23,806 nt of DNA from Escherichia coli (GTDB taxonomy: Bacteria; Pseudomonadota; Gammaproteobacteria; Enterobacterales; Enterobacteriaceae): the NCBI GenBank assembly GCA_025544715.1, contig GCA_025544715.1_4109.5, one strand, 5' to 3'. This document shows, piece by piece, positions 3,020 to 21,214 of the stretch. Below the pieces are notes generated by a model. The model was not told the origin of the DNA. It did no database searches and saw only the letters and a program-made list of their open reading frames with translations. Both the position numbers and the translations under genes were made by a program. Position 1 is the stretch's first letter. Every line of letters begins with the position of its first letter.

Positions 3020-3034
3020 AGTTTACATCAAGGC

Positions 3035-3052
3035 AGGGGGAATGGTTCCCCT
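3035..3052 (+). other. 5' leader stem-loop (AGGGGGA / TTCCCCT)
   Basis: inverted repeat with AATGG loop between promoter and RBS. Confidence 0.55.
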
Positions 3053-3076
3053 CCTAACTAAAAGAGAGAAATTAAA

Positions 3077-3422: not shown

Positions 3423-3451
3423 TTGACATTGCCCAGATAGTACTTTATAAT
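3423..3451 (+). promoter_or_regulatory. sigma70-type promoter (consensus)
   Basis: TTGACA (3423-3428), 17-nt spacer with AGTACT, TATAAT (3446-3451). Confidence 0.7.
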
Positions 3452-5121: not shown

Positions 5122-5135
5122 AAAAGATTAAAAAT

Positions 5136-5157
5136 GGGATTGACTTCGGTCAGTCCC
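5136..5157 (+). terminator. terminator-like hairpin GGGATTGAC-TTCG-GTCAGTCCC
   Basis: 9-bp stem, UUCG tetraloop, U-containing tail; directly after stop of kinase-like gene. Confidence 0.5.
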
Positions 5158-5168
5158 TTTGCTATTAT
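5140..5168 (+). promoter_or_regulatory. promoter embedded in hairpin
   Basis: TTGACT, 17-nt spacer, TATTAT (5163-5168). Confidence 0.55.
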
Positions 5169-5261
5169 ATATTCATTGAGAGATAGCTCACTGACCCACA
5201 GGGTGCAGAAGTGTATCTATTATATAAGTATTCAGTACTGAAAACTATTTTTAAAAAGTAC

Positions 5262-5568: not shown

Positions 5569-5596
5569 TTGACAAAGTATATCAGTACTGTATAAT
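5569..5596 (+). promoter_or_regulatory. sigma70-type promoter (consensus)
   Basis: TTGACAAAGTAT-ATCAGTACTG-TATAATAGTTTACATCAAGG, near-identical to 2992-3033. Confidence 0.7.
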
Positions 5597-7091: not shown

Positions 7092-7119
7092 TTGACAGTA
7101 CTAACCAGTAATGTATAAT
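7092..7119 (+). promoter_or_regulatory. sigma70-type promoter
   Basis: TTGACA (7092-7097), 16-nt spacer with AGTACT, TATAAT (7114-7119), GTTTTACATAGAG downstream. Confidence 0.65.
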
Positions 7120-7375: not shown

Positions 7376-7393
7376 CAAAAAAGAATAAAAAAA

Positions 7394-7415
7394 GGGATTG
7401 ACTCCGGTCAGTCCC
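7394..7415 (+). terminator. terminator-like hairpin GGGATTGAC-TCCG-GTCAGTCCC
   Basis: same hairpin as 2412-2433. Confidence 0.5.
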
Positions 7416-7426
7416 TTTGCTATTAT
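7398..7426 (+). promoter_or_regulatory. promoter embedded in hairpin
   Basis: TTGACT, 17-nt spacer, TATTAT (7421-7426). Confidence 0.55.
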
Positions 7427-7538
7427 ATACGCATAGACAAAAACTAGCCCACTGGGTGCAGGAGTGTATCCAAAATATATAGTTAATAACGGTGAGTAAC
7501 TATTTGCTGGTGGAGTGAAAACTATTAATAAAAAACTA

Positions 7539-8816: not shown

Positions 8817-8913
8817 GAAATAAAAGGGATTGGACTATGGCAAAATGCGTAGGGGGCTAAAGGGCGGGTAACCTTAGCGACTTCGATAAAGGGGTATTAC
8901 GAATAAAATGTTA

Positions 8914-8941
8914 TTGACTTTTTATATGAATCGTATAAAAT
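8914..8941 (+). promoter_or_regulatory. candidate promoter for the paralog array
   Basis: TTGACT (8914-8919), 16-nt spacer, TAAAAT (8936-8941). Confidence 0.5.
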
Positions 8942-8971
8942 ATGATTGATATTAATTTTAAGGGAGTCCCT

Positions 8972-9169
8972 ATGCATATTTTAACTCAAGCAGAACACCA
9001 CGAAAGACTTATCAATAACATGGCTATGATAATGTATAAGTCACATGAACGTGGTATGTCCTATAAGCGTGAATTAGTTATGGCACTATTCATTGGGACT
9101 AACTTTCAGGAAAGGTATGTCAACGATTGGATTTGGTATTTAATTGAAGATATAACGAGTAAACTATGA
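8972..9169 (+). CDS. family-1 paralog 1 (LGTNYQ-motif small protein)
   Basis: AAGGGAG RBS then ATG 8972 (ORF-track start 8942 is upstream of the RBS); C-terminal LFIGTNFQERYV...IEDITSKL. Confidence 0.65.
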   Translation: MHILTQAEHHERLINNMAMIMYKSHERGMSYKRELVMALFIGTNFQERYVNDWIWYLIEDITSKL

Positions 9170-9366
9170 AAATGCGTAAATTAACCGAAAAAGAATATCA
9201 AGCACTGTTACGTAAAAACTACACAAAGATTTATAATACAGACTCACACGTAGAAAGAATGGAGTTATACCTTTTGATTACATTGGGAACTAACTATCAG
9301 GATGCATGGGTAACGAAATATGTGGATACATTGAAAAATAAAACATTGTCCACGAGGAAACAATGA
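9166..9366 (+). CDS. family-1 paralog 2
   Basis: ATGA overlap; ITLGTNYQDAWV motif. Confidence 0.7.
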   Translation: MKMRKLTEKEYQALLRKNYTKIYNTDSHVERMELYLLITLGTNYQDAWVTKYVDTLKNKTLSTRKQ

Positions 9367-9572
9367 AAACTATAACACGAACCCAATCATTCGGACTTAT
9401 CTTGAAATACATGGACTTAATGGTGGATATCAGCAAAGACCTGCCTAAAACTGAAATTGAAGTTGCAAGAGCAGAGATCCGCATGTTGGCTGTACTGAAC
9501 ACAAACCATCAGGAAGATTATGTTGAAGAATGGATTCATTTTTTAATAGAAGATATTAAGAGTAAATTATGA
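9363..9572 (+). CDS. family-1 paralog 3
   Basis: ATGA overlap; AVLNTNHQEDYV...IEDIKSKL. Confidence 0.7.
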   Translation: MKTITRTQSFGLILKYMDLMVDISKDLPKTEIEVARAEIRMLAVLNTNHQEDYVEEWIHFLIEDIKSKL

Positions 9573-9784
9573 TTATTATAGAAAACTCATATCAATATAC
9601 TGAACGCATTGCTGCCAGGCAACTTGAAATCCTCATAATATACGAAGAGACTTCTGATTTAAACTTAGCTGAGGTATTGGAAAATGAAATACTTTTGGGT
9701 GCATTCTTGGGAACTGACTATCAGGAGTATTATGAGCAAAAGTATTTGTCATCTCTTGAGAAATACATCAGGAGCAAATTATGA
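9569..9784 (+). CDS. family-1 paralog 4
   Basis: ATGA overlap; AFLGTDYQEYY motif. Confidence 0.7.
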   Translation: MIIIENSYQYTERIAARQLEILIIYEETSDLNLAEVLENEILLGAFLGTDYQEYYEQKYLSSLEKYIRSKL

Positions 9785-9993
9785 TTTTTTTAACACCTGA
9801 AGAATATAAGAAACGTTTTAATTCTGTCCAGACTGAAATATTACTTATATACCTTTCAAATGCAGACCTTAACTTATCAAGGGCAATGGAGAAGGATTTA
9901 CTTATGGGTGCATTTTTGGATACAGACTTTCAGGAGTATTATGTAGGGAAATACTTAATTGAACTTCAGAACTACATTAAGAGTAAACTATGA
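9781..9993 (+). CDS. family-1 paralog 5
   Basis: ATGA overlap; AFLDTDFQEYYV motif. Confidence 0.7.
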   Translation: MIFLTPEEYKKRFNSVQTEILLIYLSNADLNLSRAMEKDLLMGAFLDTDFQEYYVGKYLIELQNYIKSKL

Positions 9994-10208
9994 AACATTT
10001 AAGTAATATAGAGAAGAATAAAATTATCATAGCTGCAATAAACAAATATTTTACACTTCAACAAAAAGAATGTTTATCTATAAGGGAACACAGAATAAAC
10101 ACCACCGATGTACGCATGATGGCTGTACTGGGGACTAACTTCCAAGAAGGCTATGTTCATGAGCACATCGTTGCACTCACTAATTACATAATGGACAAAT
10201 GTAAATGA
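9990..10208 (+). CDS. family-1 paralog 6
   Basis: ATGA overlap; AVLGTNFQEGYV motif. Confidence 0.7.
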   Translation: MKHLSNIEKNKIIIAAINKYFTLQQKECLSIREHRINTTDVRMMAVLGTNFQEGYVHEHIVALTNYIMDKCK

Positions 10209-10417
10209 AACGTCTTAGCAGCAGAGAATATTCTGCTATATTACATAAAGCTTTACCTGAGTTACAAAACATCGAGACGACCATCCCTGAGCCAACGCGA
10301 GGTGTACTGTTTACGGATTGTATGTTATTACACTTCATGGGAACTAATCACCAAGAATCTATAGTATCATCTCTCATCAACGCACTTAAACTTGAAATAA
10401 GAGACAAATGTAAATGA
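10205..10417 (+). CDS. family-1 paralog 7
   Basis: ATGA overlap; HFMGTNHQESIV motif. Confidence 0.7.
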   Translation: MKRLSSREYSAILHKALPELQNIETTIPEPTRGVLFTDCMLLHFMGTNHQESIVSSLINALKLEIRDKCK

Positions 10418-10671
10418 AACACTTGACAGACGATGAATATTCACTTAGAATTCGAAAGCTCACCCCAGAAGCAAGAGTAATCTACGATGACGATGCACTT
10501 TCATGGGTAGAGATGAAAGTTAAAGTTAATGAGCTATGGTTGCTGTACTTTCTGGGGACTAACTATCAAGAGAAATATTGCACCGATTACATTGAACAAC
10601 TAATGGAACTTATACAGGAAAAACTAAATGATCGAATTGTGGAAAAATATGAAAACTTTATCAAGCACTGA
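10414..10671 (+). CDS. family-1 paralog 8 with C-terminal extension
   Basis: ATGA overlap; YFLGTNYQEKY motif; usual junction stop is missing, giving a 13-aa extension overlapping the next gene. Confidence 0.65.
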   Translation: MKHLTDDEYSLRIRKLTPEARVIYDDDALSWVEMKVKVNELWLLYFLGTNYQEKYCTDYIEQLMELIQEKLNDRIVEKYENFIKH

Positions 10672-10900
10672 GTATCAAACTGCCCTATTCTCTTTACTAA
10701 ACACCCTTCGCAAGAACAATGAACTTTATCCTTCCCCTGAGAATGATGTAGTTAATGGAGACGTGCTCCTTCTTAAATTCATTGGAACTGATAAACAAGA
10801 TACCTTCACTGATCGTTATATCAATGCACTAAGAAACCTTGTAGCATATAAAACCCGCAAGGCCCAAAGAGAATGGAAGAGACAATGCGACAAAGACTAA
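10628..10900 (+). CDS. family-1 paralog 9
   Basis: KFIGTDKQDTF motif; family-like N-terminus begins at in-frame ATG 10649, so the true start may be 10649. Confidence 0.6.
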   Translation: MIELWKNMKTLSSTEYQTALFSLLNTLRKNNELYPSPENDVVNGDVLLLKFIGTDKQDTFTDRYINALRNLVAYKTRKAQREWKRQCDKD

Positions 10901-11136
10901 ATCACAAAATGTATTGTAAACTATTACAATCACTGGCACAGAAACACTATGATACAGTATCTGAAATATTACCCTATGATATCATGCGTTTAATTCATAG
11001 TGAGGCCGAGATGCTTGTACTGATGAGAGGGACTGATAAAACAGCAATAGCCAGATCGATTGAGCAATATATTGATGCACACTGCCAACACATGAGAACC
11101 GAAATCTGGAGGAAAGAGAATGAAACTCCTGAGTAA
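10873..11136 (+). CDS. family-1 paralog 10 (divergent)
   Basis: LMRGTDKTAIARSIEQYI keeps G-T-D and spacing but loses the Q; overlapping frame. Confidence 0.55.
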   Translation: MEETMRQRLNHKMYCKLLQSLAQKHYDTVSEILPYDIMRLIHSEAEMLVLMRGTDKTAIARSIEQYIDAHCQHMRTEIWRKENETPE

Positions 11137-11353
11137 TTATGAATATTATAGTCTGTTGCGAACTATACAAGCAAAAGTTTCTAGTATTTCTTTAAACAAA
11201 TCTATTGCACAAGAGGACAAATGTGTTATAATGGCTGAAATGAAGTTAGCTCTCTTCGTTGGAACAAACTATCAAAACATCTACACTGACGTATTGTTAG
11301 CCAGCCTACGCAACAAGGTGTTATCCAAAAATGAGAAAATTACAAGGTGTTGA
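11120..11353 (+). CDS. family-1 paralog 11
   Basis: MKLLSNYEYYSLLR N-terminus; LFVGTNYQNIY motif. Confidence 0.65.
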   Translation: MKLLSNYEYYSLLRTIQAKVSSISLNKSIAQEDKCVIMAEMKLALFVGTNYQNIYTDVLLASLRNKVLSKNEKITRC

Positions 11354-11549
11354 ATATATTAAGCTTCTGAAAACCTGTGCAAGCAGAAGGAGAAAGATTC
11401 AAAATGATAAAAGCATCTCTATTGACCTTAAGCACGCACTAGTAACTGAACTCTATGTAGGTGCACTCTTAGGCACAGACTATCAACAAATGTATGTAGA
11501 CATGTGGATTGAGGCTCTACTGAAAGAGGTTAAAAGTAAATGCAAATGA
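11331..11549 (+). CDS. family-1 paralog 12
   Basis: ALLGTDYQQMYV...KSKCK. Confidence 0.65.
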   Translation: MRKLQGVEYIKLLKTCASRRRKIQNDKSISIDLKHALVTELYVGALLGTDYQQMYVDMWIEALLKEVKSKCK

Positions 11550-11785
11550 TTAATTTAACTTATATTGAATATCAAAAACGTTTAAATGCATCCAGAGATA
11601 TAAGGATTCAAATATTCAATAACAAAAGATTGAAGCCTGATATCAGGAAAATCAAAATCATAGAAGCAGAGTTGTGCAACTTTTTAGGGACGAACTATCA
11701 GGCAGGTAAGGTAAAAAACTATCTTAGAGAACTCATGAATAGTATTGAAAATAAATGCAAGGATAATGAATATGAAAATGATTAA
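11540..11785 (+). CDS. family-1 paralog 13
   Basis: NFLGTNYQAGKV motif; in-frame ATG 11546 would give the usual ATGA overlap. Confidence 0.65.
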   Translation: MQMINLTYIEYQKRLNASRDIRIQIFNNKRLKPDIRKIKIIEAELCNFLGTNYQAGKVKNYLRELMNSIENKCKDNEYEND

Positions 11786-12011
11786 ATTATCTCAAGCAAA
11801 ATATAAAGAACGCCTGGTGAAAATTGCACCTGGACTTAATGAAATCCATCACGGAGAAGTCATTAAACATGGAAATAAGATGATTATGAAACTTGAGTTA
11901 AAGGTGGGTGCATTCATAGGAACAAACTATCAGGAGTATTATGTAGATGAATACATAATCGCACTTAAGAGATACATTGGAAGAAAACTATATCTACAAA
12001 CTAAAGAATAG
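11772..12011 (+). CDS. family-1 paralog 14
   Basis: ORF-track start 11745 is TTG; ATG 11772 follows AAGGA; AFIGTNYQEYYV motif. Confidence 0.6.
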   Translation: MKMIKLSQAKYKERLVKIAPGLNEIHHGEVIKHGNKMIMKLELKVGAFIGTNYQEYYVDEYIIALKRYIGRKLYLQTKE

Positions 12012-12040
12012 TATTGAAAATAAATGCGAGGATAATGAAC

Positions 12041-12304
12041 ATGAAAATGATTAATTTAAGTAAAGATGAATATACCGAGCGTATGGCAAAAATCTCAACT
12101 AAACGTAACACACTCTATCACAACCCAGAAATTCAACACAGTAAGAAAATGATTATGATGCGTGAGTTAAAGATGGGAGTATTCTTAGGAACAAACTATC
12201 AAGATACAGAAGTAAATCGCTTAATTTCGGAGTTACTAATGGAAATCAGAGGTAAGCTGTACTTTCATCAAATTACCCAACCACTGAGGTGTACTAAGAA
12301 ATGA
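12041..12304 (+). CDS. family-1 paralog 15
   Basis: ORF-track start 12014 is TTG; ATG 12041 follows GAGGA; VFLGTNYQDTEV motif. Confidence 0.6.
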   Translation: MKMINLSKDEYTERMAKISTKRNTLYHNPEIQHSKKMIMMRELKMGVFLGTNYQDTEVNRLISELLMEIRGKLYFHQITQPLRCTKK

Positions 12305-12516
12305 TCAACATCACATTGCAAGAAAGATTCATCCGAATCAACTATGCAATTACCAAATTAGATGCTACTATAGGATTCCAAAGTCTACCATATAAAACCA
12401 GATTGTTATTAGAGTGTGAAGCTAAGTTGGGTGTACTGTTAGGGACGCAACACCAACAACGATATGTGGAAATCTGGATTGACCTTTTAACCCAAAATAT
12501 ATATGAGAGAATGTAA
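12301..12516 (+). CDS. family-1 paralog 16
   Basis: ATGA overlap; VLLGTQHQQRYV motif. Confidence 0.7.
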   Translation: MINITLQERFIRINYAITKLDATIGFQSLPYKTRLLLECEAKLGVLLGTQHQQRYVEIWIDLLTQNIYERM

Positions 12517-12753
12517 ATGCAAAATGAAATGATATACTTAACGAATGAAGAATTTCAAGAGAAGATGTTAAAAACCAAAAACATTAATCTTAAGTTCGTT
12601 CCAAATCAATCAATATCTGAAGTATCTGCAAATGTATTGTTTCAGAAGCTACCATACTTTCTTGGAACTGATAAACAAGAATTTATGGTTCAAAATATGA
12701 TTGAACATCTTATGATGAGTATTAAGGAAAAAGTAAATGCAAAAACAAAATGA
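12517..12753 (+). CDS. family-1 paralog 17
   Basis: starts right after upstream stop; YFLGTDKQEFMV motif; N-terminus MQNEMIYLT shared with next gene. Confidence 0.65.
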   Translation: MQNEMIYLTNEEFQEKMLKTKNINLKFVPNQSISEVSANVLFQKLPYFLGTDKQEFMVQNMIEHLMMSIKEKVNAKTK

Positions 12754-13003
12754 AATGATATACTTAACACCTGCTGAGTTAACAGAAAGACTAGTTAAAT
12801 CCAGAAGATATACAAATCAACTTCCTCACAACCCAAACCAGACCCCAGCCGAAAGGAGTGCAGAAGTTTTATTCCAATCACTACCATACCTTCTTGGAAC
12901 TAATAGACAAGAGTATCATATCGAACGTATAATTAGATATCTTAAAATTACTATTCAGGAAAAGATACATGAACAAGAATATAAAAATCTTTACGGTCAA
13001 TGA
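12737..13003 (+). CDS. family-1 paralog 18
   Basis: YLLGTNRQEYHI motif; N-terminus MQKQNEMIYLT. Confidence 0.65.
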   Translation: MQKQNEMIYLTPAELTERLVKSRRYTNQLPHNPNQTPAERSAEVLFQSLPYLLGTNRQEYHIERIIRYLKITIQEKIHEQEYKNLYGQ

Positions 13004-13226
13004 ATATCATGATATTATAATGAAGACGAATATTGTAAATTCTAAAATTTCAAATACCAAGTTCATCCTTGAACATACATTAGAAGAACGACAATTGATA
13101 TTAGTTGAAGCAAAACTTCTTGCACTATTAGGTTCTAACTATCAAGACGAGTACATAAGAAAACTAATATACCTTTTAACTAAACATATCAGAAAAAAGA
13201 CACATGAAACACTTGACAGACGATGA
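12969..13226 (+). CDS. family-1 paralog 19
   Basis: ALLGSNYQDEYI motif. Confidence 0.65.
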   Translation: MNKNIKIFTVNEYHDIIMKTNIVNSKISNTKFILEHTLEERQLILVEAKLLALLGSNYQDEYIRKLIYLLTKHIRKKTHETLDRR

Positions 13227-13434
13227 ACATGGGCTTATAGTAATGGATGTAATCAACATCGAATACAAAAAGTTGATACGCTACCGTTGTTATGAAGATA
13301 AGCAACTAGTTCTAGCAGAACAGAAGTTGTTTCGACTCTTAAACACAAACTACCAAGCACAATACGAAGAATCGTATATGTACCTTTTGGCGAGGAAAGC
13401 AAAAAGAGATTATGAAAATTTTAAGCAAAGGTGA
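13204..13434 (+). CDS. family-1 paralog 20
   Basis: RLLNTNYQAQY motif; first 24 nt identical to paralog 8 (ATGAAACACTTGACAGACGATGAA). Confidence 0.65.
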   Translation: MKHLTDDEHGLIVMDVINIEYKKLIRYRCYEDKQLVLAEQKLFRLLNTNYQAQYEESYMYLLARKAKRDYENFKQR

Positions 13435-13639
13435 TTCAGTAATATTACTTATAGAGAGTTCAAGTCAATTCTTAAACATATCACTGTCTGATATAGATGA
13501 AGATGATAAAGAAGTACTGAGAGCAGATTTAAGAGTACTGTTACATCTCGGAACAAACCTACAAGAAAGATATGTAGAGTACTACATTGATGAACTTAAA
13601 GAATCAGTACTGAGAAAATGCAAATGCAAATGCGAATGA
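13412..13639 (+). CDS. family-1 paralog 21
   Basis: HLGTNLQERYV motif; C-terminus KCKCKCE encoded by AAATGC hexamer repeat. Confidence 0.65.
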   Translation: MKILSKGDSVILLIESSSQFLNISLSDIDEDDKEVLRADLRVLLHLGTNLQERYVEYYIDELKESVLRKCKCKCE

Positions 13640-13851
13640 TTACCGACGAAGAATACCTAACAATCATAAATGGACTGTTTTTGAAGCTCTTCGTCATTAA
13701 CACATCAGATATACCAGATATGGATAAAATTATTAAGAGAAATGAAATCTATGTTCTAGCTACCCTGGGAACTAACTATCAAGAATACGATATTAATGAT
13801 TATATTAAGACACTTAAACGAGCGATTGAACTAAAATGCCAAAACCACTAG
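13618..13851 (+). CDS. family-1 paralog 22
   Basis: ATLGTNYQEYDI motif; start may be ATG 13636 (ATGA overlap). Confidence 0.6.
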   Translation: MQMQMRMITDEEYLTIINGLFLKLFVINTSDIPDMDKIIKRNEIYVLATLGTNYQEYDINDYIKTLKRAIELKCQNH

Positions 13852-14051
13852 GAACAGCAGAATACATTGAACTCATGGGATTACACTTCTCATCCTTTCA
13901 GAAACTTATGCGAGAATCAAAGAATGATTTAGAATATACCATCAGAGGTTCAGATTTAAGAATGCTTCTCACCCTAGACACAGATTCCCAAGAGCGATTT
14001 GTCAATGAGCACATTAGAGCACTTTTAATGGAAATTCAAAGTAAACTATGA
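13836..14051 (+). CDS. family-1 paralog 23
   Basis: TLDTDSQERFV motif. Confidence 0.65.
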   Translation: MPKPLGTAEYIELMGLHFSSFQKLMRESKNDLEYTIRGSDLRMLLTLDTDSQERFVNEHIRALLMEIQSKL

Positions 14052-14263
14052 AGGTAATATCAAACCAAGAGTACTTGGCACTATTCAGAAAGAATAATCA
14101 TAAATTTATGGCACTTGATACAAGAACTGATATAGGGGAACTTGAAAAAAATCTTTTGCGTTCAGAGATGATAGTACTGACACTCTTAGGAACACAGCAT
14201 CAAGAAAGAACTGTTAATTCACACATAGAAATACTTAAGAAGCTTATACAGGAAAAGTTATGA
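14048..14263 (+). CDS. family-1 paralog 24
   Basis: ATGA overlap; TLLGTQHQERTV motif. Confidence 0.7.
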   Translation: MKVISNQEYLALFRKNNHKFMALDTRTDIGELEKNLLRSEMIVLTLLGTQHQERTVNSHIEILKKLIQEKL

Positions 14264-14481
14264 GAATCATAACACAACAAGATATGTTTAAGTTCACAAG
14301 GGATTATGCATCTGAATTTGATGCTATATTATCAAAAAGTTACAATGACCCTTATACAGAAGATGTACACTACAATGAATTATGGATGTATATACTTTTA
14401 GGTACAAATAAGCAAGAGCAAGCAGTACAGAAGTATTTGACAGCCTTAAGTACTGCTACTGCTAATGGAGTATGTGTTTAA
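14260..14481 (+). CDS. family-1 paralog 25
   Basis: ATGA overlap; ILLGTNKQEQAV motif. Confidence 0.7.
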   Translation: MRIITQQDMFKFTRDYASEFDAILSKSYNDPYTEDVHYNELWMYILLGTNKQEQAVQKYLTALSTATANGVCV

Positions 14482-14725
14482 AATGCTAGTACTGACAGAA
14501 TTAGAAATGGCAATGAGGTTTAATAGATTCAGACATTTACTTAAACCTATACAGAGGATTAAGTGCCCATTTGTAGTGAAACAGGTATTAATTTATGAGC
14601 ATAAGTTATTTGTATCATTAGGTACGAATGAACAAGAGTATTATTTGAAGTTGTACTTAATTACATTAATAGATTTAATTCACTATAAAACCAAACAAGC
14701 TAATAAAGAGAAATATGAAAACTAA
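14465..14725 (+). CDS. family-1 paralog 26
   Basis: VSLGTNEQEYYL motif; alternative start ATG 14483. Confidence 0.6.
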   Translation: MEYVFKMLVLTELEMAMRFNRFRHLLKPIQRIKCPFVVKQVLIYEHKLFVSLGTNEQEYYLKLYLITLIDLIHYKTKQANKEKYEN

Positions 14726-15059
14726 TATACAACTCAAGGTATATAAATCATTTGAACATACATATATCAAAAGTAGTCTATGTAGAGATGTAATGGATTA
14801 CAAGGGTAAGCCATTCACAATTACCTATGATTCTTATGTTAGTGATTTATATATATCATTTGTTAATTACGAAAATAAAATATACAAGCACGTTGATATT
14901 AAAGATTTAAGTACTTTATCACCAGAGGAATACTTTCAGGAATCATTAGTATGGGATTTAGAGTTTCCTATGCCATTAGTACATAAGATGATAGTACTAA
15001 TGAAAGAATCTAAACAGGAGCCTAATAGTGCTTATGAAGAACACATTATTGAGTATTAA
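14715..15059 (+). CDS. family-2 paralog (acidic-FQ motif protein, 114 aa)
   Basis: SPEEYFQESLVWDLEF motif; overlaps end of last family-1 gene. Confidence 0.65.
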   Translation: MKTNIQLKVYKSFEHTYIKSSLCRDVMDYKGKPFTITYDSYVSDLYISFVNYENKIYKHVDIKDLSTLSPEEYFQESLVWDLEFPMPLVHKMIVLMKESKQEPNSAYEEHIIEY

Positions 15060-15082
15060 GAGTACTGATAGTACAAATGTTC

Positions 15083-15111
15083 TTGACTGTACTTTTCATT
15101 ACTGATATAGT
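15083..15111 (+). promoter_or_regulatory. candidate sigma70-type promoter
   Basis: TTGACT (15083-15088), 17-nt spacer, TATAGT (15106-15111). Confidence 0.5.
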
Positions 15112-15140
15112 GCACCAACGTTAATCATAGGGTACAGATT

Positions 15141-15386
15141 ATGTTAAAATTTTTAAATTTCCTTATCGTCTTGTGTATTGTTCTTGGAATTGCACCGTTT
15201 GTATTAGCGTATCTGGATTCAGATGAAATGCAGAAGATGAATTGTACAAAGACAGGACAGAGTAGAGAAGAGACGGTTATGATACCCGTAACGGTTATTG
15301 TTAATAACATACCAATTACGAACATGATTCCTACCCTAACGACAACGTACCAGTACTCTTGTACAGATGGAGAGAGATGGAGATGA
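15141..15386 (+). CDS. small membrane or secreted protein (81 aa)
   Basis: hydrophobic N-terminus MLKFLNFLIVLCIVLGIAPFVLAYL; stop overlaps next start (ATGA). Confidence 0.5.
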   Translation: MLKFLNFLIVLCIVLGIAPFVLAYLDSDEMQKMNCTKTGQSREETVMIPVTVIVNNIPITNMIPTLTTTYQYSCTDGERWR

Positions 15387-15703
15387 AATTTAATATAGCA
15401 AAAACATCGAATGTATGTATATTTGGTTATGCAGATGAGTTAGGTGATCTTGACATTCTTTTGTACAAAAAGGATGGTGTTATGCATTTCAAGTACCAGG
15501 ATGAAGAGGCAGACAATTATCCTTTACCTAATTTAGTACAAATGCAGGAAGATGAATTATTCCAGTACAGCTTAGTATATGACATTGATATTTGCACGAT
15601 GCCAGTACTAATTAATATTCAAAAAGTGATGCTCGATGTGTTTGATAGGCTAATACAAGGCACACAAGGAAGAACCATATATGTCAATGTACAAGACAAT
15701 TAA
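15383..15703 (+). CDS. family-2 paralog (106 aa)
   Basis: ORF-track start 15359 is TTG; ATG 15383 overlaps upstream stop; QEDELFQYSLVYDIDI motif. Confidence 0.6.
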   Translation: MKFNIAKTSNVCIFGYADELGDLDILLYKKDGVMHFKYQDEEADNYPLPNLVQMQEDELFQYSLVYDIDICTMPVLINIQKVMLDVFDRLIQGTQGRTIYVNVQDN

Positions 15704-15745
15704 TCAAGAACATAAAACCTAAAATACAGGGAGTACAGAGAACGT

Positions 15746-16012
15746 ATGCAAAACACAAGGTATTATAAAAAAGTAAACCAATATTTGTACGCATCGAAGT
15801 ACAGGGATTTTTGTTTAAAGGGTGGTGATGAAGATTTTTCTTTGCGATTATCAGAATTTAATCTGTTATTTTATCTTGGTACATCGGAACAAGAAGAAAT
15901 GGCACAGAAATTTATCAAGCACCTTGAACAAAAAATTCATATGCAAATTTTGATGCTTAAGGTACATAATGAGATAAACAAATATGAATCCAACAATAGT
16001 ACAGGATCTTAA
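15746..16012 (+). CDS. family-1 paralog, dispersed copy (88 aa)
   Basis: LFYLGTSEQEEMAQKFIKHLEQKIH matches family-1 C-terminal block although located inside the family-2 zone. Confidence 0.6.
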   Translation: MQNTRYYKKVNQYLYASKYRDFCLKGGDEDFSLRLSEFNLLFYLGTSEQEEMAQKFIKHLEQKIHMQILMLKVHNEINKYESNNSTGS

Positions 16013-16373
16013 ACAAGTAATATTCCTTTTGAATACAAGAAGTTCCTTGTATACAGAGTTAAAAGATATTAATGCATTTTATCAGAATTTTGTAATTCAA
16101 GAGTTCAGTGATTTAATTACAGATGCATTATTTGAATTATCGGAAAAATACAAAGGAAAAGAGTTCAGTGTTAAGAATGTATTACGTCCTTTATCAAAGC
16201 GTATAATAAAATTAGATTGTTTCGAATTTGACAATAAAGATTTATTCGGTCATAATCTAAGTACAGCTTTATATTTTATTCCTGATTCAGACAAAAATCA
16301 TCCTATTCATTACGGATGGATTTTGTCTTACATAGAACAAGGAAAGGAGTATCCTATTAAATGGAACGATTAG
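15984..16373 (+). CDS. hypothetical protein (129 aa), possible degenerate family-2 member
   Basis: long ORF on coding strand; weak NAFYQNFVIQEF resemblance to the FQ motif. Confidence 0.5.
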   Translation: MNPTIVQDLKQVIFLLNTRSSLYTELKDINAFYQNFVIQEFSDLITDALFELSEKYKGKEFSVKNVLRPLSKRIIKLDCFEFDNKDLFGHNLSTALYFIPDSDKNHPIHYGWILSYIEQGKEYPIKWND

Positions 16374-16521
16374 GGCGATTAGATTATTACACAATTAATA
16401 CAAATTATTTGTTGAGTAATATAAAATCCGATTACAAAATATGGATAAAGAACAGAGATAGTATGTGTTATGAATTTTATTTAGATTATGCCATCAAACG
16501 ATTTTTAAGAGAAGAACATTA

Positions 16522-16722
16522 ATGCACACACCGCACAAAGAGCACACAAAGCACAAAAATACAAAAACGATAAATGTTTTAAATGATTCTTTATTGGTGA
16601 GTATAAATTTATATTATAAAATTCATTTAAATGGTGGTATTGAAAATTTTAGTTATTATTTGAGTGCAATATCGCAAGAGCATTTAATATACCAAGATCA
16701 TTTATTGCACCCGAATCCATAA
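16522..16722 (+). CDS. doubtful small ORF (66 aa)
   Basis: no convincing RBS; begins in CA-rich low-complexity DNA; kept only because it is on the coding strand of a 350-bp gap. Confidence 0.25.
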   Translation: MHTPHKEHTKHKNTKTINVLNDSLLVSINLYYKIHLNGGIENFSYYLSAISQEHLIYQDHLLHPNP

Positions 16723-16730
16723 GGCGAATT

Positions 16731-17276
16731 ATGAATGAGATAGAATTATTAGCACACAAGATTAGTACAATAATGCTTATCCTCAATAACAACCATCCTA
16801 TATCGCAGATAGATGGAATCCTGAGTCAGAGGACAGGTGGTAGTTTATATTTGACATTAACAGAGGTTATCGCAAGGAATTACATTGATATTGAAATCGA
16901 GAACAGTGATGCATCAGGAAAGGTTGATGTAGGTGCATTAATCAGTTCAAATCCAGTATCAGCATCACCATTGACACGAAATGTAAGTACAGGATTCGAA
17001 GGGTATTTGTGGTACAATACCAATGATGATTATTTTATATATCAGCATTCAAATACAAATTATGATGAAGACAAATTTAAGTTCATAGACCCTTATGATG
17101 AAGCTGAAGTATTTCAAAAATCATTAATCACAAAACCGCATGAGATGATGTATCTAATGTTATTCAGTACAATGCATTTGAATCCATTAATTAAAGGTTT
17201 AAAATTTTATATTCAATTGAATTTAGTCCATGTAGTTTATGATTTATTAATGCAAGGATATAGTTATGAAGTATAA
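16731..17276 (+). CDS. family-2 paralog, long form (181 aa)
   Basis: DEAEVFQKSLI motif; C-terminus ...VYDLLMQGYSYEV parallels C-terminus of 17887-18462. Confidence 0.65.
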   Translation: MNEIELLAHKISTIMLILNNNHPISQIDGILSQRTGGSLYLTLTEVIARNYIDIEIENSDASGKVDVGALISSNPVSASPLTRNVSTGFEGYLWYNTNDDYFIYQHSNTNYDEDKFKFIDPYDEAEVFQKSLITKPHEMMYLMLFSTMHLNPLIKGLKFYIQLNLVHVVYDLLMQGYSYEV

Positions 17277-17577
17277 AATGCTTTATACATTAACATTAAT
17301 ATATGTAGAATTAGAATCCGATTCAGATGCATGGAATTTAGTTAAAGAGGTCGATACAAATCAATGGTACATGGCAAATTTAGACGCACAGGTTGTTACG
17401 GATTATTTTATAGATTTTAATACATTATCTGAAGAAGAATTTTTCCAAATGCAATTGGTGGTTGACATGTACGGGCATGACATGGTAACATTACGAAATA
17501 TACAGAAAGCCGTTAATGAAATCCAAAGCAAGAAAGATTATGAGGTAGGAGCGTATTATGACATCGACGTACAATGA
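17266..17577 (+). CDS. family-2 paralog (103 aa)
   Basis: LSEEEFFQMQLVVD motif; close paralog of next gene. Confidence 0.7.
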   Translation: MKYKMLYTLTLIYVELESDSDAWNLVKEVDTNQWYMANLDAQVVTDYFIDFNTLSEEEFFQMQLVVDMYGHDMVTLRNIQKAVNEIQSKKDYEVGAYYDIDVQ

Positions 17578-17588
17578 GTACAATAGTT

Positions 17589-17906
17589 ATGAAGTATAAA
17601 ATGCTTAATACAGTATCAGGGATATATGTAGAATTAGAATCCGATTATTCAGATGGATGGAATTTTATTAAACGCCACGATATAAATACATGGTACATGG
17701 CACATTTGGATAATGACGTAATAATAGATAATTTTGTCGATTTTAATACATTATCAGAAGAAGAATTTTTCCAAATGCAATTTGTGCTTGATACAAATGG
17801 ATTTGATTTGCTATTATTAAGGAATATTCAGAAAGCGGTTAATGAATTCATAATCCAAAATAATTCAGGTAAAATGGGGATGTTCCATGATCTGGAAGTA
17901 CAATGA
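17589..17906 (+). CDS. family-2 paralog (105 aa)
   Basis: start placed at ATG 17589, homologous to the start of 17266; LSEEEFFQMQFVLD motif. Confidence 0.65.
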   Translation: MKYKMLNTVSGIYVELESDYSDGWNFIKRHDINTWYMAHLDNDVIIDNFVDFNTLSEEEFFQMQFVLDTNGFDLLLLRNIQKAVNEFIIQNNSGKMGMFHDLEVQ

Positions 17907-18462
17907 AAGCAACGATTACAATGAAATTCAGTACACCTACGCTAATGCAATCCTTATGGGACAAAAATTAGCTTGTATTGTTGCAGCCTTATATAATGCA
18001 CAGAAAGATTACAAGCGTCATATCCACAAATGTATTGGTATTATTCCATCTAAGTACAATACATATATTGCGTGCACGAGTCATTTTGATAAACGATTCA
18101 ATACACCTGATACCCCAAATGCCAGTAGTGTTATTGGTCTTTTGGATTTCGCACCTGGTGCTGTTATTGGAAAGAATGATTTAGAGTACGCATGGTATAA
18201 TAAAAATTCCCCATTAGTAATGGTAAAATATGATACAGAAACGAACAAAACAATAGAGTACAATACATATAAATCAGAGGAAGAATTTTTCCAAGGTTCA
18301 TTGCTTGTGCCAGTGCGTTTGTTGTTTTATAATGTCCTTATTAGTACAGTACACAATAGTCCATTACACAAGAATCACAAAATTAATTTCAATTTTTGTG
18401 CTTATGCGATTGATGGTGTGTATGAGTGTTTAATGGAGGTATTGAGTTATGAAGCTGAATAA
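17887..18462 (+). CDS. family-2 paralog, long form (191 aa)
   Basis: SEEEFFQGSLLV motif; C-terminus ...VYECLMEVLSYEAE. Confidence 0.65.
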   Translation: MIWKYNESNDYNEIQYTYANAILMGQKLACIVAALYNAQKDYKRHIHKCIGIIPSKYNTYIACTSHFDKRFNTPDTPNASSVIGLLDFAPGAVIGKNDLEYAWYNKNSPLVMVKYDTETNKTIEYNTYKSEEEFFQGSLLVPVRLLFYNVLISTVHNSPLHKNHKINFNFCAYAIDGVYECLMEVLSYEAE

Positions 18463-18790
18463 TACATTTGATATTAATAAGTTAAGAGAATGGTTTTATA
18501 GTATTGAAATTGAAGCCATCCCGTATCATAGATATGAACAATATAATTTAACCAGTATTGATATCCGTGAGTTGTACGCGTATTATCAAAGTGCATTAGA
18601 GATGCATAAGTTATTTTTGAGTACAGATTTTGTTCTAAATTACAATTTTGAGGAATTTAATAATTATAATTTAGTACAGAAATATGTAGTAGCAAAGTAC
18701 ATGTACCTTCAAGGAATTACAAGTACCGTGGAATTCAATACAGTCCTTGCTTTAGTTGAGGTAATTTTATGCAGTACATGTATGATTTAG
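18449..18790 (+). CDS. hypothetical protein (113 aa), possible degenerate family-2 member
   Basis: ATG overlapping upstream gene end; ELYAYYQSALEMH weakly motif-like. Confidence 0.55.
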   Translation: MKLNNTFDINKLREWFYSIEIEAIPYHRYEQYNLTSIDIRELYAYYQSALEMHKLFLSTDFVLNYNFEEFNNYNLVQKYVVAKYMYLQGITSTVEFNTVLALVEVILCSTCMI

Positions 18791-19275
18791 AGTTCAGTTT
18801 AGATGCAGCATTTAAATATGTTCACAAGATAGAAACAATATACAGTACATTATGTGCAATACAATCAGTATCATCTGAGTTTGATGTTGGTGAAAAATAT
18901 CAGGTATGGAATAATACATTTCTAAACAAAGAACGTTGCTCTACGGGGTTTAATATTTTAACATTTAATCCCAGCAATTGTTACCCAGAGAAGCATGAAC
19001 GTTATCCGAATGACGACATGTGGTTTGATTACACAAAAGATGGTGATATGTCATCCCTTGTAGTTCCTGATGATTTTAATGCCGAAGATTTAACGAAAGA
19101 GTGGTGGTTTCAACAGAATTTAGTACACGATGATATTGATTTATTTTTTTATGTAGTATTTAAAATGCTTTACCACAACAATATATTAAAAGATAGTGTG
19201 TTTTTTTCATGTCTATATATTGATGATTTGTACAATGAAATCCAAATCAACATGCCCATAACGCCTGTATCGTAA
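18769..19275 (+). CDS. family-2 paralog (168 aa)
   Basis: TKEWWFQQNLVHDDIDL motif. Confidence 0.65.
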   Translation: MQYMYDLEFSLDAAFKYVHKIETIYSTLCAIQSVSSEFDVGEKYQVWNNTFLNKERCSTGFNILTFNPSNCYPEKHERYPNDDMWFDYTKDGDMSSLVVPDDFNAEDLTKEWWFQQNLVHDDIDLFFYVVFKMLYHNNILKDSVFFSCLYIDDLYNEIQINMPITPVS

Positions 19276-19290
19276 GATATGGGCTTTTTT
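19255..19290 (+). terminator. possible terminator (CCCATA / TATGGG stem plus T-run)
   Basis: 6-bp stem with large 17-nt loop followed by CTTTTTTCGTTTT; large loop lowers confidence. Confidence 0.35.
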
Positions 19291-19300
19291 CGTTTTGGTA

Positions 19301-19329
19301 TTGACAAAGAAGTGCAAAGCTGTTATCAT
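19301..19329 (+). promoter_or_regulatory. sigma70-type promoter
   Basis: TTGACA (19301-19306), 17-nt spacer, TATCAT (19324-19329). Confidence 0.6.
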
Positions 19330-19357
19330 GTGTAATCATTTTAAAGGAGAACATATA

Positions 19358-19870
19358 GTGAGTTTCATAATCCCAAGTACATACGAAGATGCATCAAGTG
19401 CAGTTCATAAGATTCATTATATTTTTAATTTAATTATTAGATCTGCAAAAATTAAAATGTATGCACCTCTTGTGACAAATAATCGAAATGAAGAAATTTT
19501 TATTAGCACAGACAAAATTATTTTTCCATATTTCAATGAAGATAGATTGTGGTTCATACATTTAGCTGCATTACAAAAATATAAGATGTCAATTCGTAAT
19601 AATTTGGTTATACCGTTATATCATCCCGATATTGGAGAGGATGAATATTTTCAGTACAGCACAGTACACCGCCATGAAGATATCTTTGCTGCTATGCTTA
19701 TTGCTAAATTGAACACCGTTGATTTGGAGCAGTACAAATACAATAATAAATCATGTAAGATCATAATCCCTGCATTCATAGCTCTTTATGATTATGTGGT
19801 GCATAACAAAAAAGATGATACATATGCTTTCAATGAAGAGTATTTGGATTTTTTTAAGGAGAACATATGA
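19358..19870 (+). CDS. family-2 paralog (170 aa), GTG start
   Basis: ORF-track start 19295 is TTG inside the promoter; GTG 19358 lies 8 nt after AAGGAG; GEDEYFQYSTVH motif. Confidence 0.55.
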   Translation: MSFIIPSTYEDASSAVHKIHYIFNLIIRSAKIKMYAPLVTNNRNEEIFISTDKIIFPYFNEDRLWFIHLAALQKYKMSIRNNLVIPLYHPDIGEDEYFQYSTVHRHEDIFAAMLIAKLNTVDLEQYKYNNKSCKIIIPAFIALYDYVVHNKKDDTYAFNEEYLDFFKENI

Positions 19871-20394: not shown

Positions 20395-20395
20395 C

Positions 20396-21010: not shown

Positions 21011-21011
21011 T

Positions 21012-21206: not shown

Positions 21207-21214
21207 GGTATAAA

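What the first reader, a model, noticed from the sequence alone, without database searches (positions are those of the whole stretch)
10414..13227. Mosaic N-termini among array members
Paralogs 8 (10414) and 20 (13204) begin with the same 24 nt, ATGAAACACTTGACAGACGATGAA (MKHLTDDE), although the rest of the genes differ; paralogs 17 and 18 both begin MQ(K)NEMIYLT. Short identical blocks among otherwise divergent paralogs suggest gene conversion or recombination between units.
Basis: seen in the sequence. Interest (0 to 1): 0.45.

Follow-up and report, generated by a model that had tools for sequence, protein, structure and literature searches.

The report
Shared gene starts in phage paralog array
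Two small genes in a 26-copy tandem gene family of a giant E. coli phage really do start with the same 24 bases, but that shared start is old and present in related phages, and it is one ordinary trace of the unequal recombination that keeps adding, deleting and splicing units in this array.

Summary
ATGAAACACTTGACAGACGATGAA occurs exactly twice (10414, 13204), at the starts of units 8 and 20 of a tandem array of PHROG-4148 mini-proteins (26 units, 8972-14725, plus a stray copy at 15746). The host genome is an Asteriusvirus (121Q/PBECO4-like) jumbo coliphage. Units 17 and 18 share 23 nt. Both blocks exceed chance and family-wide conservation.

The 8/20 start is old. In 12 related phages and 2 metagenome contigs, the orthologues present already begin M(K/R/L)HL(T/N)xDE and differ at 1-6 of 24 nt, so there was no recent large conversion. 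Perfect identity here rests on two synonymous states private to this genome (10428 A, 13221 C). The latter is the only private substitution in gene 20. This fits a very short conversion tract but does not prove one.

Recombination between units is directly visible elsewhere:
- Units 7, 14, 17 and 19 are flanked by 14-55-nt direct junction repeats. They are absent from relatives, which keep a single repeat copy.
- 121Q carries the exact crossover product inside the 17/18 block.
- Window unit 18 is a chimera of two paralog subtypes.

This is ordinary tandem-array dynamics in an uncharacterised, fast-evolving early-gene family. One extra: both 8/20 starts contain TTGACA-17-TAnAnT, a sigma-70-like promoter.

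The parts
8972..14725 (+). Tandem array of 26 small paralogous genes (64-85 aa from the anchored starts; motif LGTNYQE). There is almost no intergenic space: 11 junctions are ATGA stop/start overlaps, and most others overlap by 8-35 nt.
   Evidence: ORF list. HMM-anchored units. 26 of 27 units match PHROG 4148. Syntenic arrays of 23-31 units occur in 12 related Asteriusvirus genomes.
10414..10671 (+). Unit 8 (MKHLTDDEYSLRIRKLTP...)
   Evidence: Allelic types in relatives are 75-93% identical in nucleotides.
13204..13434 (+). Unit 20 (MKHLTDDEHGLIVMDV...)
   Evidence: It is 95-100% identical in 10 relatives and 72% in phage A4.
10414..10437 (+). Copy 1 of the exact 24-nt shared start. Position 10428 (A) is private to this genome.
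13204..13227 (+). Copy 2 of the exact 24-nt shared start. Position 13221 (C) is the only window-private site in gene 20.
12520..12542 (+). Left copy of the exact 23-nt junction/start repeat (unit 17).
   Evidence: It is the crossover site of the one-unit deletion seen in 121Q.
12746..12768 (+). Right copy of the exact 23-nt junction/start repeat (unit 18).
12529..12753 (+). Unit 17 (subtype A of the MIYLT subgroup; alternative upstream ATG at 12517). It is absent from 121Q, E9.1, PBECO4 and JP4.
12755..13003 (+). Unit 18 (alternative ATG at 12737). It is a chimera: the subtype-B start and body (near-identical to the 121Q orthologue, about 2 mismatches in the first ~209 nt) is joined to a subtype-C tail, with the crossover at about 12945-12966. 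A separate subtype-C unit is missing here.
10194..10211 (+). Left copy of the 18-nt direct repeat GACAAATGTAAATGAAAC flanking unit 7.
   Evidence: (D12).
10403..10420 (+). Right copy of the 18-nt direct repeat. It overlaps the first 7 nt of unit 8.
10205..10417 (+). Unit 7. It is present only in this genome. Relatives join unit 6 directly to unit 8 or carry other units at this position.
   Evidence: Its body has no nucleotide match in 50,697 phage records. It is at most 40% identical in protein to any member in 12 relatives.
11735..11789 (+). Left copy of a 55-nt direct repeat (51/55 identical): the tail of unit 13 plus the start of unit 14.
   Evidence: (D1).
12004..12058 (+). Right copy of the 55-nt repeat: a relic of the unit-13 tail plus the start of unit 15.
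11778..12011 (+). Unit 14, absent from 121Q and Ecwhy_1, which keep one copy of the junction repeat.
12960..12973 (+). Left copy of a 14-nt imperfect repeat AAAAGA(T/C)ACATGAA flanking unit 19.
13195..13208 (+). Right copy of the 14-nt imperfect repeat. It overlaps the ATGAA of unit 20.
12969..13226 (+). Unit 19, absent from 121Q. Its tail reads through the start of unit 20 in another frame (…THETLDRR*).
10423..10451 (+). Sigma-70-like promoter match TTGACA-17-TAGAAT (11/12) inside the start of unit 8.
13213..13241 (+). Sigma-70-like promoter match TTGACA-17-TATAGT (11/12) inside the start of unit 20.
8914..8941 (+). Promoter-like site TTGACT-16-TAAAAT, 31 nt before the start of unit 1. It is the likely promoter of the array.
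15746..16012 (+). Stray member of the same family, lying inside the next paralog array.
   Evidence: E = 1.6e-19 to the family HMM.

Best explanation
**What it is.** The window is part of the early-gene region of an Asteriusvirus (121Q/PBECO4-like) jumbo coliphage. Coordinates 8972-14725 hold 26 head-to-tail copies of one small gene family (PHROG 4148). The proteins are predicted as a confident three-helix bundle of unknown function.

**Two layers behind the shared starts.**
- Layer 1 is structural. All units share an N-terminal motif, M-x-x-L-T/S-x-x-E-Y/F. In the model, residue 2 pairs with the invariant GT(N)xQ turn, and T/S-x-x-E caps helix 1.
- Layer 2 is recombinational. The unit junctions (the tail of one unit plus the start of the next) are where the array breaks and rejoins. 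Unequal homologous or microhomology-mediated recombination between junctions deletes or duplicates whole units. It also produces units whose start or tail comes from a different paralog than their body.

**What is shown.** The 17/18 block is such a junction, and one relative carries the exact crossover product. Three more units (7, 14, 19) are bounded by junction repeats and missing in relatives. Unit 18 is a chimera.

**What is inferred.**
- The 8/20 start is an old product of the same process. One start sequence now sits on two unrelated bodies. It predates the sampled relatives apart from the most divergent, A4, and has since been held by purifying selection.
- In this genome the two copies were made perfectly identical by a very short conversion tract (or two point mutations) affecting 10428 and 13221.
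- The array as a whole is a patchwork of alleles exchanged between co-infecting phages. It is under relaxed purifying selection, as expected of accessory early host-interaction proteins.
For: **Identity of the genome.**

**Family and structure.**
- 26 of 27 units match PHROG 4148.
- AlphaFold2 gives mean pLDDT 97.6, helices 6-24, 31-45 and 52-84, and single bridge residues at positions 2 and 49.

**The 8/20 block is non-random.**

**The block is old.**
- Gene-20 orthologues in all sampled relatives read ATGAA(A/G)CACTTGACAGATGATGAA, or ATGCTGCACTTGACAAATGACGAA in the most divergent phage, A4.
- Gene-8 alleles differ from that sequence at 1-6 of 24 nt.
- Start and body disagree. The bodies of units 8 and 20 are about 18% identical, below the family mean of 24%, and each has a different best partner.

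**The homogenising states are private.**
- 13221 T>C is the only window-private site in the 231 nt of gene 20, compared with 10 orthologues.
- None of 31 phage records or 2 metagenome contigs has it.
- 10428 G>A is absent from all 10 records that carry this allele type.
- My rough estimate of reaching perfect identity by independent point mutations is about 1e-3.

**Recombination at junctions.**
- Three-way alignments for units 7, 17 and 19 and unit 14.
- Exact repeat coordinates.
- Unit order differs across 13 genomes.
- Subtype-A loss, with the unit-16 tail fused to the subtype-B start, in 121Q, E9.1, PBECO4 and JP4.
- Unit 18 is a B/C chimera.
- A G17 unit (label xc) joins a new start to a unit-6-like tail.

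**Patchwork of alleles.** Per-unit identity to relatives runs from 69% to 100%.

**Selection.** Median dN/dS among alleles is 0.37.

**Early-gene setting.** Six perfect 12/12 sigma-70 promoters lie in upstream intergenic regions. Related phage CBB has RpoD-like promoters concentrated among short early ORFs (PMC5259590).
Against: - No genome sampled shows a direct 8 x 20 recombinant, which would be a 2.79-kb deletion or a swapped start. The 8/20 exchange is therefore inferred, not seen.
- In relatives, the nucleotide similarity of the two starts is explained by amino-acid identity plus codon bias (P = 0.18). The ancient exchange thus rests mainly on eight identical residues, four of which are family-consensus positions.
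- The recent-conversion component rests on two single-base changes and cannot be told apart from point mutation.
- Junctions are not conserved linkers. Among alleles the last 45 nt before each start are the most variable part (0.18 against about 0.09 differences per site).
- The function of the proteins is unknown. There is no Pfam, NCBIfam, PADLOC, PDB or fold match.
Confidence: 0.7

Rival explanations
1. Independent conservation only. The starts of units 8 and 20 are alike because the N-terminus is a constrained structural element of the fold, and both genes happen to keep the same version. No exchange between units ever took place.
For: - The family-wide consensus is M-x-x-L-T-x-x-E-Y.
- The model places residue 2 against the invariant GT(N)xQ turn and starts helix 1 at residue 6.
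- Both starts are conserved in orthologues across the genus.
- Starts diverge less than bodies among gene-8 alleles.
- In relatives, codon sharing is not significant once amino acids are the same (P = 0.18).
Against: - The four non-consensus positions (K2, H3, D6, D7) are also identical. 0.007 identical pairs are expected, and 0.12% of column shuffles give one.
- The bodies are less alike than an average pair.
- Two private synonymous changes each move towards the other paralog.
- Recombination at exactly such junctions is documented four times in the same array.
Confidence: 0.2
2. Embedded promoter. The shared block is held at the nucleotide level because it carries the -35 element of an internal sigma-70 early promoter (TTGACA, 17-nt spacer, TAnAnT). 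Transcription would restart inside the 26-gene array at units 8 and 20. This is not exclusive of the best explanation.
For: - 11/12 matches at 10423-10451 and 13213-13241.
- Only 3 matches of at least 11/12 lie on the + strand of the array, against 0.32 expected (P = 0.003). Units 8 and 20 are the only units that score high at this homologous position.
- The score stays 10-11/12 in four of five gene-8 allele types although the hexamers differ (TTGACG+TAGAAT, TTAACT+TATAAT, TTAACA+TATAGT).
- The score also holds in the 72%-identical A4 allele of gene 20 (TTGACA+TATCAT).
- The phage clearly uses sigma-70-type early promoters (CBB paper).
- Leu is encoded by the rarer TTG codon (13% usage) only in these two units.
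Against: - Both sites lack the extra features of this phage's intergenic promoters: A-rich...TA before the -35, and AGTACTG before the -10.
- They lie inside coding sequence, so a transcript would not encode unit 8 or unit 20 itself.
- The -35 is simply the dipeptide Leu-Thr of the family motif.
- The 121Q gene-8 allele scores 6/12.
- A promoter explains 6 to 12 of the 24 bases, not K-H and D-D-E.
- There are no transcript data.
Confidence: 0.2
3. Recent gene conversion or recombination in this genome copied a 24-nt tract from one unit to the other.
For: The 24/24 identity includes every synonymous site (P = 0.004 given identical amino acids).
Against: 22 of the 24 bases were already shared by the closest alleles in other phages, and 18-22 in all of them. 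At most positions 15 and 18 changed in this lineage.
Confidence: 0.05
4. Chance, or an RNA-structure or translation-initiation signal shared by the two starts.
For: None beyond AT-rich composition. Start regions are expected to be unstructured.
Against: - Shuffles never give the match.
- Both 71-nt regions fold no better than shuffles (z = +1.2 and +0.7).
- No Rfam family matches anywhere in the window.
- Other units use different start sequences with the same ATGA coupling.
Confidence: 0.01

Closest known systems
Staphylococcus aureus lpl tandem paralog cluster (Tsuru & Kobayashi 2008, PMC2568036)
   Same: - A tandem cluster of diverged paralogs.
- Copy number and composition differ between strains.
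- Short conserved stretches serve as sites of homologous recombination that shuffle variable parts.
- The history is reconstructed by comparing many genomes of one lineage.
   Different: - In lpl the recombination site is one highly conserved central region of each ORF, so the evolutionary unit runs from mid-ORF to mid-ORF.
- Here the documented breakpoints lie at the junctions (tail plus start: units 7, 14, 17, 19) and in the C-terminal helix (unit 18).
- The repeats are only 14-55 nt.
- The setting is a virulent jumbo phage, not a bacterial genomic island.
Interlocus (ectopic) gene conversion and concerted evolution of tandem paralogs (general concept; my own knowledge, with examples listed)
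   Same: A short tract of identity sits inside otherwise diverged paralogs. Two private changes each match the other copy.
   Different: There is no concerted evolution. Orthologous starts group across genomes, not paralogous starts within genomes. The possible tract is 1-4 nt of informative sequence.
Lineage-specific expansions of small proteins in jumbo phages, for example about 35 zinc-ribbon copies in Bacillus phage G (Iyer et al. 2021, PMC7824862), and the early region of short ORFs with RpoD-like promoters in phage CBB (PMC5259590)
   Same: - A large phage-specific paralog expansion of a small domain.
- A position among short early ORFs driven by sigma-70-type promoters.
   Different: - This is a different protein family (PHROG 4148, three-helix bundle, restricted to Asteriusvirus).
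- I found no paper that describes this array or its recombination dynamics.
Poxvirus 'genomic accordions' (copy-number expansion and contraction of a host-antagonist gene; my own knowledge, not tested here)
   Same: Recombination-driven gain and loss of tandem gene copies in a large DNA virus.
   Different: - Accordions are recent, near-identical amplifications under acute selection.
- Here the copies are ancient (mean 24% protein identity) and each unit has its own orthologues across the genus.

Membership tests
PHROG 4148 (phage protein family of unknown function) | A significant match to the family HMM over most of its length. | tested here: met
   26 of 27 units match, with best E = 8.6e-27. 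Unit 8 aligns at residues 1-72 to profile positions 1-72 of 74. The SHEFM2K annotation gives the same PHROG.
Unequal recombination in a tandem array (copy-number variation) | Units are present or absent between related genomes while the flanks stay collinear. | tested here: met
   Arrays hold 23-31 units in 13 genomes. Units 7, 14, 17 and 19, and units labelled xa and xc, are variably present.
Unequal recombination in a tandem array (copy-number variation) | The variable unit is bounded by direct repeats, and the shorter genome keeps exactly one copy, with the left flank on one side and the right flank on the other. | tested here: met
   - Unit 17: 23/23 nt. 121Q switches from 100% left-type to 100% right-type inside the repeat.
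- Unit 7: 18/18 nt.
- Unit 19: 13/14 nt.
- Unit 14: 51/55 nt.
Unequal recombination in a tandem array (copy-number variation) | Chimeric units that combine parts of two paralogs. | tested here: met
   Window unit 18 is near-identical to 121Q subtype B (about 2 mismatches) over the first ~209 nt. It then follows the subtype-C tail and the C-to-19 junction.
Interlocus gene conversion between units 8 and 20 | A tract of significantly elevated identity bounded by diverged sequence. | tested here: met
   A run of 24 in a pair with 42% overall nucleotide identity, global permutation P < 3.3e-4.
Interlocus gene conversion between units 8 and 20 | Within the tract, paralogs of one genome are closer to each other than to their orthologues in other genomes. 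| tested here: not met
   The gene-20 start is 22-24/24 identical across 11 genomes. The starts of genes 8 and 20 within other genomes differ at 2-6 sites. Only positions 15 and 18 follow the paralog pattern, and only in the window.
Interlocus gene conversion between units 8 and 20 | Non-reciprocal transfer with an identifiable donor and recipient. | tested here: inconclusive
   Each copy carries one private change towards the other. This needs two tracts or patchy repair of one heteroduplex, or two point mutations.
Sigma-70-type promoter | -35 and -10 hexamers close to TTGACA and TATAAT, with a 16-18-nt spacer. | tested here: met
   11/12 with a 17-nt spacer at 10423 and 13213.
Sigma-70-type promoter | The context of this phage's own early promoters: intergenic, 28-58 nt before a start codon, with TA before the -35 and AGTACTG before the -10. 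| tested here: not met
   Both sites lie inside coding sequence and lack both extras. Compare the 12/12 sites at 1681, 2652, 2992, 3423, 5569 and 7092.
Sigma-70-type promoter | A mapped transcription start. | not testable with these tools
   No transcript data were available.
S. aureus lpl-type cluster evolution | Recombination at a conserved central region, so that the 3' part, the spacer and the next 5' part travel together. | tested here: inconclusive
   - The central GT(N)xQ block is the most conserved nucleotide stretch.
- One G17 unit (xc) looks like a new start joined to a unit-6 tail after that block.
- The four clear breakpoints are at junctions. Phylogenies of starts against tails were not compared.

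The most novel reading that the evidence does not exclude
The MKHLTDDE starts of units 8 and 20 are dual-use sequence. They encode the N-terminus and at the same time act as internal sigma-70 early promoters (TTGACA-17-TAnAnT). These would split the 26-gene, spacer-free array into separately transcribed blocks. Selection for promoter strength, helped by occasional exchange between the two copies, would then explain why they are identical to the base here and stay promoter-like in alleles as low as 72% identical.
Probability: 0.2. Interest if true: 0.5.

Novelty: new member of a known kind. Interest (0 to 1): 0.33.

Why it matters
The finding itself is ordinary. Short identical blocks among tandem paralogs are what unequal crossing-over and conversion leave behind.

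The modest value lies in the case. This is a 23-31-copy family of confidently folded three-helix mini-proteins, found so far only in Asteriusvirus jumbo phages. The literature searched does not describe it. Its units can be seen being deleted, inserted and spliced at 14-55-nt junction repeats, and its alleles are reshuffled between phages.

That behaviour, together with the position among sigma-70-driven early genes, marks the array as a candidate host-takeover or counter-defence repertoire worth a functional screen. For genome annotation, it warns that gene starts and tails in this region are recombinant and often overlap the next gene.

Tried and rejected
- **Function by sequence.** Single-member noise only in Pfam, NCBIfam and PADLOC. 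No PDB sequence relative.
- **Wider distribution.** The profile search found 90 proteins, all unnamed. The named ones were all Asteriusvirus phages or E. coli-labelled assemblies, several on contigs of about 350 kb.
- **RNA explanation.** No Rfam match, and the two start regions fold no better than shuffles.
- **Large multi-unit duplication.** I asked whether a segmental duplication placed unit 8 and unit 20 at equivalent positions. The best-partner lists show no parallel series 8-9-10 / 20-21-22.
- **Junctions as conserved linkers for cassette exchange.** Rejected. Among alleles the 45 nt before each start are the most variable part.
- **A direct 8 x 20 recombinant.** None in 12 relatives.
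- **Other carriers of the window-private states.**
  - 31 and 10 phage records: none.
  - IMG/VR: only 121Q.
  - JGI metagenomes: 2 contigs, both of the common type.
  - GTDB genomes: none.
  - Complete E. coli genomes: no match.
- **Technical dead ends.** A global MAFFT alignment of whole arrays timed out. A greedy BLAST chain was confused by paralogous matches. A pairwise MAFFT loop timed out and was redone with Biopython.

Full report
**1. What the window is**

The whole window matches jumbo coliphages of the genus Asteriusvirus (121Q, PBECO4, phAPEC6, G17, SHEFM2K and others). The best match is 93.5% identical over 91% of the window.

On the + strand, 8972-14725 carries 26 small genes packed head to tail. 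Each has a central LGTNYQE-like motif, and a 27th copy lies at 15746-16012.

26 of the 27 units match PHROG 4148, a family of unknown function. The units are very diverged, with mean pairwise protein identity of 24% and a maximum of 49%.

**2. The observation**

The 24-mer occurs exactly at 10414 and 13204 and nowhere else, even with three mismatches allowed, and never in shuffles. It is the longest exact run shared by any two units. The 23-mer of units 17 and 18 is second.

Three nulls were tried:
- Column frequencies of the first 24 aligned bases expect 1.7e-5 identical pairs, and no codon-column shuffle out of 2000 reaches 24/24.
- Permuting alignment columns in the style of GENECONV gives global P < 3.3e-4.
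- At protein level, 0.007 pairs identical over eight residues are expected.

Outside the block, units 8 and 20 are about 18% identical in protein, below the family average. It is not explained by a motif that is identical in every unit.

**3. The 8/20 start is old**

I fetched the array from 12 related phages and two metagenome contigs.

Gene 20 is present in all of them. It begins ATGAA(A/G)CACTTGACAGATGATGAA in every one except the most divergent phage, A4, which has ATGCTGCACTTGACAAATGACGAA.

Gene 8, absent from A4, exists in at least five allelic types that are 75-93% identical to the window's copy. All begin M(K/R)HL(T/N)xDE and differ from the gene-20 start at 1-6 of 24 bases.

A third lineage, subtype C of the 17/18 group, begins MKYLTDDEL.

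In the relatives, 5 of 7 codons are shared between the two starts. Given identical amino acids and the array's codon usage, that is unremarkable (P = 0.18). The bulk of the block is therefore not a recent conversion in this genome.

What still needs explaining is why two bodies as unlike as 8 and 20 carry the same eight residues. Four of those residues (K2, H3, D6, D7) are not family-consensus positions.

**4. The last two bases**

Perfect identity in the window depends on A at 10428 and C at 13221. The closest gene-8 alleles have G at the first position. Every other gene-20 sequence has T at the second.

- 13221 is the only window-private site in the 231 nt of gene 20, compared with ten orthologues.
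- None of 31 phage records or two metagenome contigs has C at that position.
- None of the ten records with the window-type gene-8 allele has A at 10428.

Each private change moves one copy to the state of the other. My rough estimate for reaching identity by independent point mutations is about 1e-3. It uses 17 private sites in the 258 nt of gene 8 and 1 in the 231 nt of gene 20, and allows either copy to change at each site. This is suggestive of a short conversion tract or patchy heteroduplex repair across 2.79 kb. With two informative bases it cannot be proved.

**5. Recombination between units is directly visible elsewhere in the array**

Unit order is collinear across 13 genomes, but units come and go. 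Three-way alignments compare the window's left junction, the relative, and the window's right junction.

| Unit | Flanking repeat in the window | Relatives lacking the unit |
|---|---|---|
| 17 | 23/23 nt, 12520-12542 and 12746-12768 | 121Q; the same loss in E9.1, PBECO4 and JP4 |
| 7 | 18/18 nt, GACAAATGTAAATGAAAC, 10194-10211 and 10403-10420 | SHEFM2K, phAPEC6, ECO103, E9.1 and others join unit 6 to unit 8 through one copy |
| 14 | 51/55 nt, 11735-11789 and 12004-12058 | 121Q and Ecwhy_1 keep one copy |
| 19 | 13/14 nt, AAAAGA(T/C)ACATGAA, 12960-12973 and 13195-13208 | 121Q joins the preceding unit to gene 20 there |

- **Unit 17.** 121Q is 100% the left type up to and through the 23-nt block and 100% the right type after it. 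In E9.1, PBECO4 and JP4 the tail of unit 16 is fused to the subtype-B start.
- **Unit 7.** The second repeat copy includes the first seven bases of gene 8. The unit-7 body has no nucleotide match in 50,697 phage records.
- **Unit 14.** The right repeat copy carries a relic of the unit-13 tail.
- **Unit 19.** The right repeat copy overlaps the ATGAA of gene 20.
- **Unit 18.** It is a chimera. It is near-identical to 121Q subtype B (about 2 mismatches) for the first ~209 nt, then follows the subtype-C tail and the C-to-19 junction. A separate C unit is missing from the window.

**6. What this says about mechanism**

The breakpoints fall in the tail-plus-start junctions and in the conserved C-terminal helix. 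A crossover there deletes or duplicates a unit and leaves a gene whose start or tail comes from another paralog.

"Mosaic N-termini" are therefore an expected by-product. The 8/20 start is most simply an old product of the same process, later held by selection. This step is inferred, because no 8 x 20 recombinant was seen.

The junctions are not conserved linkers. Among alleles the 45 nt before each start are the most variable stretch, at 0.18 differences per site against about 0.09. That fits repeated breakage and rejoining rather than constraint.

Per-unit identity between the window and any one relative jumps between 69% and 100%. The array as a whole is less similar to relatives (83-91%) than the window overall (93.5%). 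This indicates exchange of alleles between phages. Median dN/dS among alleles is 0.37, so the genes are real and under relaxed purifying selection, not overall positive selection.

**7. The protein**

With only the 27 paralogs as alignment, AlphaFold2 gives mean pLDDT 97.6 for unit 8. The model has three helices (6-24, 31-45, 52-84) and single bridge residues at positions 2 and 49.

I infer that the N-terminal strand pairs with the invariant GT(N)xQ turn, and that T5-x-x-E8 caps helix 1. This would explain the consensus L-T/S-x-x-E-Y/F.

No fold or sequence relative with a known function was found. Homologues identified to source are confined to Asteriusvirus phages and E. coli-labelled assemblies, several on contigs of about 350 kb.

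**8. A promoter-like signal in the two starts**

The consensus scan put its best + strand hits in the array at 10423-10451 (TTGACA-17-TAGAAT) and 13213-13241 (TTGACA-17-TATAGT).

For the promoter reading:
- Three hits of at least 11/12 lie on the + strand of the array, against 0.32 expected (P = 0.003). Units 8 and 20 are the only units that score high at this position.
- The score stays 10-11/12 in four of five gene-8 allele types and in the 72%-identical A4 allele of gene 20, with different hexamers.
- The phage plainly uses sigma-70-type early promoters. Six 12/12 sites lie 34-58 nt before start codons in the first 8 kb. Related phage CBB is reported to have RpoD-like promoters concentrated among short early ORFs.

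Against it:
- The two sites lack the extended features of those canonical promoters: TA before the -35, and AGTACTG before the -10.
- They lie inside coding sequence.
- The -35 hexamer is simply the Leu-Thr of the family motif.
- The 121Q gene-8 allele scores 6/12.

I keep this as a non-exclusive rival at about 0.2.

**9. Comparison with what is known**

The closest described case is the S. aureus lpl tandem paralog cluster. There, recombination at a conserved stretch shuffles variable parts between units and strains. The differences here are the junctional position of the breakpoints, the very short repeats, and the phage setting.

Large paralog expansions of small proteins are known in jumbo phages, for example about 35 zinc ribbons in phage G. 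I found no paper that describes this family or its dynamics.

**10. Verdict**

Recombination between units is real and is shown at the 17/18 block. The 8/20 block is ancient, with at most a two-base recent homogenisation.
- This is a new member of a known kind of process, of modest interest.

Noticed in passing
window 1681-1708, 2652-2679, 2992-3019, 3423-3451, 5569-5596, 7092-7119 (also 52, 643, 6772, 7539): Nearly every intergenic gap in the first 8 kb holds a perfect or near-perfect sigma-70 promoter with a phage-specific extended consensus, roughly AAAA(A/G)TA-TTGACA-N9-AGTACTG-TATAAT. The perfect 12/12 sites lie 34-58 nt before a start codon. This looks like the early promoter class of this phage.
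   Followed up: partly
window 2405-2450, about 5130-5175, about 7388-7433: Three copies of one hairpin element, AAAAAGGGATTGACTCCGGTCAGTCCCTTTGCTATTAT. The first folds at -19.5 kcal/mol with z = -5. Each follows a gene end, and they are probably shared intrinsic terminators. The promoter scan picked them up as false TTGACT hits.
   Followed up: partly
window 14715-22633: A second, different paralog array follows directly. At least 13 ORFs of 103-207 aa share a motif like (E/D)E(E/Y)FFQxSLVxD. SHEFM2K annotates them as PHROGs 13866, 15629, 19795 and others. The stray PHROG-4148 unit at 15746-16012 sits inside it.
   Followed up: no
window 10205-10417: Unit 7 is a family member with no nucleotide match in 50,697 phage records. 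It is at most 40% identical in protein to any member in 12 relatives. Other phages have nothing, or two different units, at this position.
   Followed up: yes
window 12755-13003: Gene 18 is a chimera of two paralog subtypes (B body, C tail). This genome lacks the separate MKYLTDDEL (subtype C) unit that nine relatives have.
   Followed up: yes
window 8900-14800 versus the rest of the window: The array is clearly more diverged from relatives (83-91% identity) than the window as a whole (93.5% to SHEFM2K). Each unit has a different closest relative. This indicates allele shuffling between phages.
   Followed up: partly
window 10414-10668 (protein model): AlphaFold2 reaches mean pLDDT 97.6 using only the 27 in-window paralogs as the alignment, yet the fold has no significant match in PDB.
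   Followed up: partly
L003 (G17) 3029-3187: G17 and its relatives carry a truncated unit (52 aa). Its part after the GT..Q motif resembles the tail of unit 6 (HEHIVALTNLIRDKCK). This suggests a breakpoint at the central conserved motif as well.
   Followed up: no
protein P0001 (ENA contig, 154 aa): The best profile hit is a 154-aa protein, twice the unit length (E = 9.4e-31). It is probably two units fused in frame.
   Followed up: no
L009 (CMSTMSU) about 2801-2860: The gene-8 orthologue in the UNVERIFIED CMSTMSU record is interrupted by a stop after 18 codons, and the record annotates few array genes. This is probably due to sequencing errors.
   Followed up: no
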